From NCBI GenBank assembly GCA_036785375.1, contig JAWMAR010000070.1:7316001-7380000 (forward strand): a stretch of DNA of 64,000 nucleotides, in the 5' to 3' direction. The notes under the pieces were generated by a model. It was not told where the DNA came from. It ran no database searches and saw only the letters and a list, made by a program, of their open reading frames with translations. Each line of letters begins with the position of its first letter. Within the stretch, counting starts at the first letter, position 1. The translations under genes and the position numbers were made by a program. Below, one piece after another: positions 3,231 to 4,545 of this stretch. Source of the DNA: Leucoraja ocellata. Its lineage: Eukaryota.

Positions 3231-3428
3231 ATCCCACACCCCAGAGACGTGCAGGTTTGTAGGTTAATTGGTCAGTGTAAATTGTATCTAGTGTGTGGGA
3301 TAGAACTAGTATATGGGGTGATCACTGGTCCCCATTGACTCTGTGGGCCGAATGGCCTGTTTCCCTGAACTAAACTAAACTAAACTAAACTAGACTTTGC
3401 TACTGATTCTGGGACGGGCCCTGCTGAA

Positions 3429-3968
3429 TCAGTAGAAGCTTTCAAAGACTGACAGCCAGACCCATTCTTCACAAGTCCTATTATCTTGAGTGGACCAGAC
3501 ACAGGTATATAACCCTTCATCTTTCTGTTCTACGCCTGCCAGGATCAACGAGGCATCATGTATCACATGGATATCATTATGCTTGAAACGCCAGCGGCCC
3601 TCCGATCGCTTCGCTATGTCAGGAGTTTTAAGACCATACCTGGCAATCGTAACATTGTATTTTCTCCAAATAACATTCAAGAGTTGATCGTATTCGCGGG
3701 ATACTTTACAGGGCAGCGTAATGATACTACCCAGAGCTGCATCGAGCATATCCTCGTTAAATGATGCACCGTAATCACTGTCAGAATCTGACTCGTTCGT
3801 GCATCTTGGAAACCGTTCATTGGTGACTTGCCGAGGGGCCCGTGCGTTCCGCCCGGCCAAGTTTGCTTCCTCTCCCCATTCTCTGGAGATCGGACCTGTT
3901 CCAGTTACGGAGACTTGCCACACCATCTCCACAAGGACCATGAATCCTATCCATCTCTGCAGTCCCAT
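3429..3968 (-). CDS. Secreted single V-type Ig-domain protein, copy 1 (type A), 179 aa; whole CDS in one exon
   Basis: ATG at 3968 lies 4 nt after acceptor cccacAG (3974-3973). Hydrophobic leader MGLQRWIGFMVLVEMVWQVSVTG; Ig V motifs ITLPC, VIW, DASLIL, DEGLYTC; stop straight after the G strand; no TM segment. Confidence 0.85.
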   Translation of the reverse strand: MGLQRWIGFMVLVEMVWQVSVTGTGPISREWGEEANLAGRNARAPRQVTNERFPRCTNESDSDSDYGASFNEDMLDAALGSIITLPCKVSREYDQLLNVIWRKYNVTIARYGLKTPDIAKRSEGRWRFKHNDIHVIHDASLILAGVEQKDEGLYTCVWSTQDNRTCEEWVWLSVFESFY

Positions 3969-4545
3969 GTTCCTGTGGGTGAAACAATGGGTCACCTTAT
4001 TGCAACTCAGTAGGATTCATGATGACATTCCCTGAACCCGCCCAGAGTTGGGGAATCGAGAACCAGAGGACATCGGTTTAAGGCGAGGGGGGGAAAGATT
4101 TAATGTGAAACTGAGGGGTGACTTTTTTACACAAAGGGTGGAGGGTGTTTGGAACGAGCTGCCGGAAGAGGTAGTTGGGGCAGGTACTATCACAATGATT
4201 AAGAAACAGTTAGACAGGTACATTGATAGGACAGGATTAGAGGGGTAAGGGCCAAACGCAGGCAGGTGGGTCTAGTATTGATGGGACAAGTTGGTGGGCG
4301 TGGGCAAGTTGGGCCGAAGGTCTCGCTGTGACTCTATGACTCCATCACTTGTCCCACCCCGGTCATTCCTCCTTCTCCCTGGTCCTGTCTAGCAGACGGT
4401 ACAGAAGCTTGAAAGCGCGCACCACCAGACTCAGGAACAGCTTCTTCCCCTCTGCTATCAGGCTTCTGAACTGGGGGAACAGTGAACAGAGACAATCCCA
4501 CCCCCATCACTCACAGACACTTGAAGGATCCACAGGGTTGGTTAC

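What the first reader, a model, noticed from the sequence alone, without database searches (positions are those of the whole stretch)
3420..3972. Cassette-like architecture: invariant leader and flanks around a swapped ~330-nt domain
Seen: types A, B and C are nearly identical from promoter through intron, signal peptide and ...PRCT(D/N)xSDS. They then diverge abruptly across the Ig domain, and A and B become alike again exactly at the stop (TGATTCAGCAGGGCC). Known: conserved prepro regions with hypervariable mature peptides typify conotoxin and antimicrobial-peptide families. Inference: either gene conversion homogenises everything except the domain, or divergent domains are copied in from donors elsewhere.
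Basis: partly seen in the sequence, partly recalled or inferred. Interest (0 to 1): 0.75.

Follow-up and report, generated by a model that had tools for sequence, protein, structure and literature searches.

The report
Shared leader, ancient skate Ig domains
A likely skate genome carries dozens of neighbouring genes for small, likely secreted antibody-fold proteins whose first kilobase is about 99% identical while their domains are only 50-70% alike; repeated copying between neighbours likely keeps the front ends the same, and no store of spare domains was found.

Summary
The five window genes belong to a cluster of 57 single-IgV genes, perhaps two haplotypes of 32 and 25, plus two copies on another contig. 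Relatives were found only in skates and an electric ray.

Across seven domain types the core promoter and exon 1 are 99.3% identical, the intron ends 99% and the leader 97%. The domains are 49-73% identical, with silent divergence dS 0.4-1.2.

Gene conversion is supported: a repeat-derived intron block is 98% identical across unrelated domain types, flanks are reassorted, the trees are incongruent, and the unlinked copies diverge evenly.

The donor idea is not supported: every strong domain hit has its own promoter and leader, and no recombination signals were found. Type C breaks earlier (codon 45) than stated. Only types A, B, F and G share the 3' flank.

The mechanism is known (Hessian fly SSSGP-1, fugu protocadherins). 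I found no paper on the family. Function is untested, and four RNA runs showed no expression. This scan reported the same cluster before from other windows.

The parts
3776..4856 (-). Homogenised 5' block of gene 1 (type A): promoter, exon 1, intron, signal and pro region up to about codon 64
4672..4690 (.). ER-stress-element-like motif (ERSE-I consensus, recalled) in the shared promoter; present in 59 of 59 copies
4611..4620 (-). TATA box; an ATG lies 17 nt downstream, likely before the transcript start (inferred)
3973..4514 (-). Single intron (GT..AG) ahead of the coding exon; splicing predicted, not seen in reads
   Evidence: matches the exon join in NCBI little-skate models
4032..4346 (-). 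Repeat-derived middle block of the intron (resembles an antisense CR1-type LINE end, label recalled); marker allele shared by 47 genes of six domain types
3831..3968 (-). Gene 1 codons 1-46: predicted signal peptide and pro region ending in an RxxR motif
   Evidence: cleavage inferred
3432..3830 (-). Gene 1 predicted mature part: four-cysteine IgV domain, type A
   Evidence: fold of the type B relative
2809..3431 (-). Stop codon and 3' flank shared with type B (short unique stretch, then a repeat inserted at the same place in A, B, F, G)
13170..15003 (-). Gene 2 (type B), ORF 13560-14096, with shared 5' block and 3' flank
18412..21209 (-). Gene 3 (type A), ORF 19779-20315, with shared 5' block and a 1.4-kb 3' flank alike to gene 4's
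27788..30604 (-). Gene 4 (type B), ORF 29179-29715
44799..46258 (-). Gene 5 (type C), ORF 44799-45371; shared 5' block ends near 45239 (codon 45); own 3' flank

Best explanation
These are old tandem paralogues whose first kilobase is about 99% identical, likely because gene conversion between neighbours keeps overwriting it, while the IgV domains stay 50-70% alike, likely because selection preserves and diversifies them. Shown: near-identity of the 5' block, deep silent divergence of the domains, reassorted flanks and intron alleles, incongruent trees, no leaderless domains. Inferred: conversion tracts (with some unequal crossing-over) end near the pro/mature boundary because tracts that overwrite a domain are purged and the diverged domain no longer pairs. 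In A, B, F and G the 3' flank was also exchanged, which leaves the domain as an island. Inferred function (about 0.45): secreted, cut at the RxxR site, co-expressed from one stress/secretory-type promoter, acting as a panel of soluble recognition or decoy proteins.
For: Between types on the cluster contig, core promoter plus exon 1 average 99.3%, intron 5' end 98.7%, intron 3' end 99.6% (1148 pairs each), leader 97.1%, domain 58.7%. Domain dS is 0.42-1.19 in 12 of 12 between-type pairs, and dS=0.15 is rejected in all 12 (2dL 11.3-52.6). A repeat-derived intron block is 98.3% identical between types (742 pairs, 47 genes), whereas 65 other copies of that repeat in the same 656 kb are a median 77.7% and at most 84.7% like gene 1's copy. 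The other intron allele joins D1 and G at 99.2% although their domain dS is 0.60, while D2, D3 and D5 (dS 0.03 and 0.05 to D1 for D2 and D5) carry the repeat allele. Unlinked control: G versus the other-contig copy has domain dS 0.22 and intron-middle identity 86%, compatible with one rate (dS=0.15 not rejected, 2dL 1.3). Flank chimeras: 3 of 24 B genes have the A upstream flank; both D5 genes have B upstream and D downstream. One D3 copy differs from its counterpart at 6 sites of the 5' block, 5 of them alleles seen in other types, and at 2 in the domain. AU tests on 24 genes reject each tree on the other region (p 0.001 and 0.006; tree lengths 3.06 vs 0.20). Diversifying selection: omega about 5 for D1-D2 and D1-D5; mean pN/pS 2.2 in B and 1.8 in D.
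Against: Part of the 5' block is also constrained or was converted across contigs: the intron 5' end is 96.9% and the first 35 codons 96% alike to the unlinked copies. A neighbour-incompatibility test inside the 5' block of the 47 repeat-allele genes found 163 of 1485 incompatible site pairs but no spatial clustering (1965 of 5000 permutations as low). Fourfold-site counts are small and weaker for some pairs (A-B 4 of 20, B-G 2 of 22), so the 3' conversion of G is less secure. MaxChi shows abruptness only and would also fire under selection alone. dS comes from a pairwise model without site variation. Copies are not independent, and the cluster may be present twice as two haplotypes. No transcript was seen.
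Confidence: 0.8

Rival explanations
1. Domain transplant or promoter capture between complete genes: single exchanges using the shared 5' block and shared 3' repeat as homology arms put one domain into another gene's unit (for example the A domain into a B-flanked unit), after which units were amplified by unequal crossing-over.
For: A and B are alike on both sides of the domain (97.5% over 1.3 kb downstream for one pair); 3' breaks sit within about 25 nt of the stop; chimeric flanks exist; long unit duplications at 97-99.8% fill the cluster.
Against: C, D, E and H keep their own 3' flanks, so the domain travels with its downstream DNA; 5' breakpoints differ by pair; short mosaic tracts occur inside the 5' block. 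For A versus B this cannot be told from two flanking conversion tracts; the two are not exclusive.
Confidence: 0.12
2. No exchange at all: recent duplicates with strong purifying selection on the 5' block and very fast selection-driven or mutator-driven change in the domain, as proposed for amphibian antimicrobial peptides.
For: omega above 1 within types; most breakpoints coincide with the predicted cleavage site; some constraint is visible against the unlinked copies; such a 'hypermutable domain' is claimed in a title cited in PMC3731216 (reference list only).
Against: Silent divergence of the domains far exceeds intron divergence; a transposon fragment is unlikely to be held at 98% by selection; its distribution cuts across the domain tree; 11 counterpart gene pairs differ at 53 sites over about 1 kb each of 5' block and 16 over about 0.4 kb each of domain, so no excess in the domain; types B, C, D, E and G have close counterparts in little skate.
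Confidence: 0.05
3. A silent library of leaderless domains is copied into expression sites, as in chicken Ig pseudogene conversion, lamprey VLR or trypanosome VSG (recalled).
For: Cassette-like look of A versus B; seven broken copies exist (all 5 F, one A, one on the other contig) and could act as templates.
Against: All 59 loci with a family domain carry promoter and leader. Searches with A, B and D domains and a full-length relative gave no other strong hit; 7 of the 8 weak hits elsewhere were fetched and look like V exons of other genes, without the leader. No recombination signal-like sequence in 12 of 12 genes scanned. The only partial copies are the reverse: two promoters without a domain.
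Confidence: 0.03

Closest known systems
Hessian fly SSSGP-1 genes (PMC2955719; outline, abstract and passages read)
   Same: Tandem and inverted small secreted-protein genes with conserved promoter, UTRs, signal peptide and intron around a diversified mature region; positive selection plus concerted homogenisation proposed.
   Different: Seven genes in 15 kb in an insect, against about 25-57 genes over 530 kb here; here the mature part is an alignable IgV domain with measurable dS, an intron marker and an unlinked control; the 3' side is homogenised in only four types.
Fugu clustered protocadherins (PMC1852091; passages read)
   Same: Regional gene conversion within one exon: near 100% on one side of a discrete boundary, 60-80% on the other, with the recognition part spared.
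   Different: There the 3' part of variable exons of membrane proteins is homogenised; here it is the promoter, intron and leader of free-standing genes.
Divergence peak under gene conversion (Teshima and Innan model as described and applied in PMC2588116; passages read)
   Same: Selected region stays diverged inside duplicates that otherwise evolve in concert.
   Different: Described for gene pairs with narrow peaks; here a whole domain in seven types.
Nectin / CD155 family domain 1
   Same: Best structural match (nectin-1 D1, Z 16.1, rmsd 1.8, 106 aligned, 21% identity); CD155 tops the profile search (E 4e-13); the electric-ray relative is auto-named nectin-1-like.
   Different: Single domain, stop right after it, no membrane anchor, pro region and an extra cysteine pair; CAR, JAML and P0 score almost as well.
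Conotoxin and amphibian antimicrobial-peptide precursors (PMC3731216 passages; conotoxins recalled)
   Same: Conserved signal and pro region, variable mature part, basic cleavage site.
   Different: No sequence or fold link; in PMC3731216 the conservation is ascribed to purifying selection.

Membership tests
Regional concerted evolution (SSSGP-1 / protocadherin type) | Non-coding and leader regions more alike than silent sites of the mature region | tested here: met
   98-99.6% non-coding identity versus dS 0.42-1.19
Regional concerted evolution (SSSGP-1 / protocadherin type) | Discrete boundaries and incongruent regional trees | tested here: met
Regional concerted evolution (SSSGP-1 / protocadherin type) | Positive selection on the mature region | tested here: met
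   omega about 5 in two D pairs, pN/pS 1.8-2.2 within types; no site model run
Regional concerted evolution (SSSGP-1 / protocadherin type) | Homogenised block is species-specific (paralogues closer than orthologues) | not testable with these tools
   No DNA from other skates held; little-skate leaders are nearly the same as here, one Rhinoraja protein differs
Cassette-donor systems (chicken Ig, VLR, VSG) | Pool of promoterless or leaderless donor segments | tested here: not met
   59 of 59 domain loci carry the leader; searches score only top candidates and the assembly may be incomplete
Cassette-donor systems (chicken Ig, VLR, VSG) | One or few expression sites, somatic mosaics | tested here: inconclusive
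   52 of 59 genes are intact with their own promoter; no transcripts to test mosaics
Rearranging antigen receptors (Ig, TCR, IgNAR) | Recombination signal sequences next to V, separate J and C segments | tested here: not met
   none in 12 of 12 genes scanned; the ORF holds the whole domain and ends in a stop
Nectin / CD155 family | IgV domain 1 fold | tested here: met
   (type B model; margin over non-nectin rows about 2 Z)
Nectin / CD155 family | V-C2-C2 ectodomain, transmembrane helix, cytoplasmic tail | tested here: not met
   stop follows the V domain in 52 intact genes; highest 19-residue hydropathy after residue 30 is 1.7; no splice donor at the ORF end in 7 genes checked
Nectin / CD155 family | Descent from a nectin gene (tree, synteny) | not tested
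   no tree with nectins built
Conotoxin / antimicrobial-peptide precursors | Short mature peptide with toxic or antimicrobial activity | tested here: not met
   mature part is a 123-144-residue IgV domain; activity not testable

The most novel reading that the evidence does not exclude
Batoid fishes keep a germline library of secreted V domains, at least seven ancient types with mosaic sub-variants, all plugged into one interchangeable ER-stress-type expression and export cassette that recombination keeps uniform and moves between domains: a non-rearranging, antibody-like soluble repertoire made by professional secretory cells.
Probability: 0.2. Interest if true: 0.8.

Novelty: new member of a known kind. 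Interest (0 to 1): 0.5.

Why it matters
It is an unusually clean vertebrate case of conversion acting on one part of a gene while selection protects the other. It comes with a dated marker (the intron repeat) and a built-in control (the unlinked copies), so the theory of divergence islands can be tested directly. The family itself, dozens of diversified secreted IgV domains seen only in skates and an electric ray, has no description that I found and may be an unrecognised immune, mucosal or reproductive recognition system.

Tried and rejected
Leaderless donors: none found. C, E, F and G domains were not used as separate queries, though they came up as hits. One of 8 weak outside hits (C535) was not fetched.

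V(D)J-type signals: none in 12 of 12 genes.

Viral origin: viral fold hits are generic IgV at 9-23% identity; rejected.

IL-1 receptor domain likeness, suggested by the recalled cysteine pattern: IL-1R-family chains appeared only as weak sequence hits and not among the listed structural rows; inconclusive.

Expression: no RNA holder listed. Four RNA runs were laid (3-25% of their reads). Coding-exon depth was 0 in three and at most 1 in one; all other reads were repeat matches in the intron. Tissues are unknown, so this does not show silence.

Neighbour-incompatibility test inside the 5' block: not significant.

ESM Atlas gave only unnamed or generic Ig clusters.

Whether the two cluster blocks are haplotypes or a true duplication stays open: no read depth was obtained.

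Literature: searches returned 0 papers; one search listed 15 of 36, none on this family by title or abstract start. Subscription journals and supplements were not seen.

Full report
What is there. The window holds five minus-strand genes. Each has a TATA promoter, a short first exon, a 540-560-nt intron, and one exon encoding a predicted signal peptide, a pro region and a four-cysteine V-set Ig domain followed by a stop. The finding's coordinates cover the coding exon of gene 1. A search of the genome with the leader and reading 656 kb around the window gave 57 such genes between C70:6.99 and 7.52 Mb, in both orientations. Two more lie on contig C16. I sorted them into types: B 24, D 18 (five subtypes), F 5, A 4, C 2, E 2, G 2 and H 2 on C16. 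52 of 59 are intact and give 37 distinct proteins; all five F genes, one A and one H are broken. The cluster occurs as two colinear blocks of 32 and 25 genes either side of a 200-N gap, with flanks 93-98% alike and interiors up to 99.4% over 43-46 kb. These may be two haplotypes, so the true count may be 25-32.

Relatives. A protein search found 7 relatives: six clusters of uncharacterised little-skate proteins and one from Rhinoraja. A profile search added an electric-ray protein with the same layout, including the PRQV motif and all four cysteines. A second search with that alignment returned the same 8 and nothing else. The little-skate set has counterparts of types B, C, D, E and G, so these types predate that split. 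That the genome is a skate is inferred from these hits. A model of type B (domain pLDDT about 70-90) is an IgV domain closest to nectin D1 (Z 16.1, rmsd 1.8, 106 aligned), with CAR, P0 and CD155 close behind. This is a leaning, not membership: there is no C2 domain or membrane anchor.

Checking the observation. A versus B is 95-100% identical in 60-nt windows up to +167, 59-75% across the domain, and 86-100% from the stop on. A versus C drops at codon 45 and does not recover. All 16 5' junctions and 6 3' junctions tested are sharper than any of 1000 permutations. The 5' break lies at codons 44-50 in 11 pairs, at 65-70 in the four A/B/F pairs and at 36 for G versus H. Codons 44-50 bracket the RxxR motif and the following Gln-Val, the likely processing site (convertase specificity recalled). 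The 3' flank is shared by A, B, F and G only (87-93% over 170 nt between types); C, D, E and H have their own. Upstream, the common block begins about 190-240 nt before the TATA box.

Why selection alone does not explain it. Between types, promoter core plus exon 1 average 99.3%, the intron ends 98.7% and 99.6% (1148 pairs), the first 44 codons 97.1% and the domain 58.7%. A pairwise codon model gives domain dS of 0.42-1.19 in 12 between-type pairs and rejects dS=0.15 in all 12. The middle of the intron has two alleles. One is a repeat fragment found in 47 genes of types A, B, C, D2, D3, D5, E and F, 98.3% identical between types; 65 other copies of that repeat nearby are a median 77.7% like it. 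The other allele is in D1, D4, G and the C16 copies, so it is likely ancestral. It is 99.2% identical between D1 and G (domain dS 0.60), while D1's close relatives D2 and D5 (dS 0.03 and 0.05) carry the repeat allele. The unlinked copies act as a control: G versus H has dS 0.22 and 86% identity in the intron middle, compatible with a single rate, so the domain does not look hypermutable. Eleven counterpart pairs across the two blocks show no excess of change in the domain either. Flanks are reassorted: three B genes have the A upstream flank, and D5 has B upstream but D downstream. One D3 copy carries other types' alleles at five leader and intron sites. AU tests on 24 genes (the 23 intact genes of block 2 and the intact H) reject congruence both ways.

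Results against this reading. The intron 5' end (96.9%) and early leader (96%) are also close to the unlinked copies, so constraint contributes. A clustering test of incompatible sites inside the 5' block was not significant. Fourfold-site counts are small, and for B-G only 2 of 22 differ, which weakens the case for 3' conversion in G. For A versus B, two flanking tracts cannot be told from one domain transplant between complete genes.

The donor idea. Searches with the A, B and D domains as protein, the A domain as DNA, and a full-length relative found strong hits only at the 59 known loci, all with promoter and leader. Seven of eight weak outside hits were read; they look like V exons of nectin-, CD200- and TCR-like and other genes (labels from recalled motifs) and lack the leader. 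No recombination signal-like sequence was found in 12 genes. The only partial copies are two promoter-plus-exon-1 pieces cut off in the intron. The searches score only top candidates and the assembly may be incomplete.

How it likely works. Old duplications produced the domain types. Neighbouring copies, direct and inverted, likely keep exchanging the 5' kilobase, and unequal crossing-over likely changes copy number. Tracts would end where the mature protein begins, because overwriting a domain is selected against and divergence then blocks pairing. Within types, amino-acid change outruns silent change (omega about 5 in two D pairs; pN/pS 2.2 in B), and B variants are mosaics of a few alternative segments. 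All 59 promoters hold an ER-stress-element motif (lead from earlier findings), but they are one homogenised sequence and count as one case. My best functional guess (about 0.45) is a co-expressed panel of secreted recognition or decoy proteins; reproductive or mucosal roles are not excluded. No expression was seen in four RNA runs of unknown tissue. The exon-1 ATG used in NCBI's little-skate models lies 17 nt from the TATA box; it is in frame in 55 of 57 cluster genes but out of frame in both C16 copies, so it is likely not used.

Comparison and verdict. The same inverted conservation pattern is described for Hessian fly SSSGP-1 genes (PMC2955719; outline, abstract, passages). Regional conversion with a discrete boundary is described for fugu protocadherins (PMC1852091; passages), and divergence peaks under conversion are predicted and observed in PMC2588116 (passages). 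PMC3731216 (passages) ascribes conserved amphibian prepro regions to purifying selection. Searches found no description of this family; subscription papers and supplements were not seen. Earlier agents of this scan reached a similar reading on other windows of the same cluster; that is not independent support. Verdict: real, mechanism of a known kind at unusual scale and clarity, in an apparently undescribed batoid gene family; cassette donors not supported. Interest 0.5.

Noticed in passing
G000:C70:6985005-7312929 versus 7313130-about 7566000: The whole cluster and its flanks occur twice, separated by a 200-N gap, with the same start and end of gene order but 32 versus 25 genes; possibly two haplotypes with large copy-number difference.
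   Followed up: partly
G000:C70:7260970 and 7512387 (L065, L082): Two promoter-plus-exon-1 copies, 98-99.7% like the family block, cut off in the intron by sequence that looks like a retrotransposon; no domain follows.
   Followed up: partly
G000:C16:1774984 and 1786230 (L093, L094): Two unlinked family copies (one broken) with the ancestral intron allele and 91% promoter identity; domain closest to type G.
   Followed up: yes
G000:C70 type F genes (for example 7119380, 7446113): All five F genes are broken yet their 5' block is as homogenised as in intact genes, which suggests conversion continues without function.
   Followed up: partly
window 4672-4690 and equivalents: ER-stress-element motif in 59 of 59 promoters, a UPRE-like motif in 57 of 59; the core is CpG-rich (observed/expected 0.76).
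   Followed up: partly
domain types: Predicted mature domains split by charge: D, E and C basic (pI 8.7-9.9), A, G and H acidic (5.0-5.6), B near neutral; may mean different ligands.
   Followed up: no
L098, L099, L100 (G000:C7 near 10.98-11.11 Mb): Three closely related, diversified V exons of another clustered Ig-superfamily gene family.
   Followed up: no
L101 and L102 (C1570, C92); L103 (C85); L104 (C77): Near-identical nectin-like V exons on two contigs, tandem CD200-like V exons, and TCR-like V segments (labels recalled).
   Followed up: no
window 31442-34737 and 37714-40999: A 3.3-kb intergenic segment is duplicated at 96% between gene 4 and gene 5; the window is otherwise dense in LINE and SINE pieces.
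   Followed up: no
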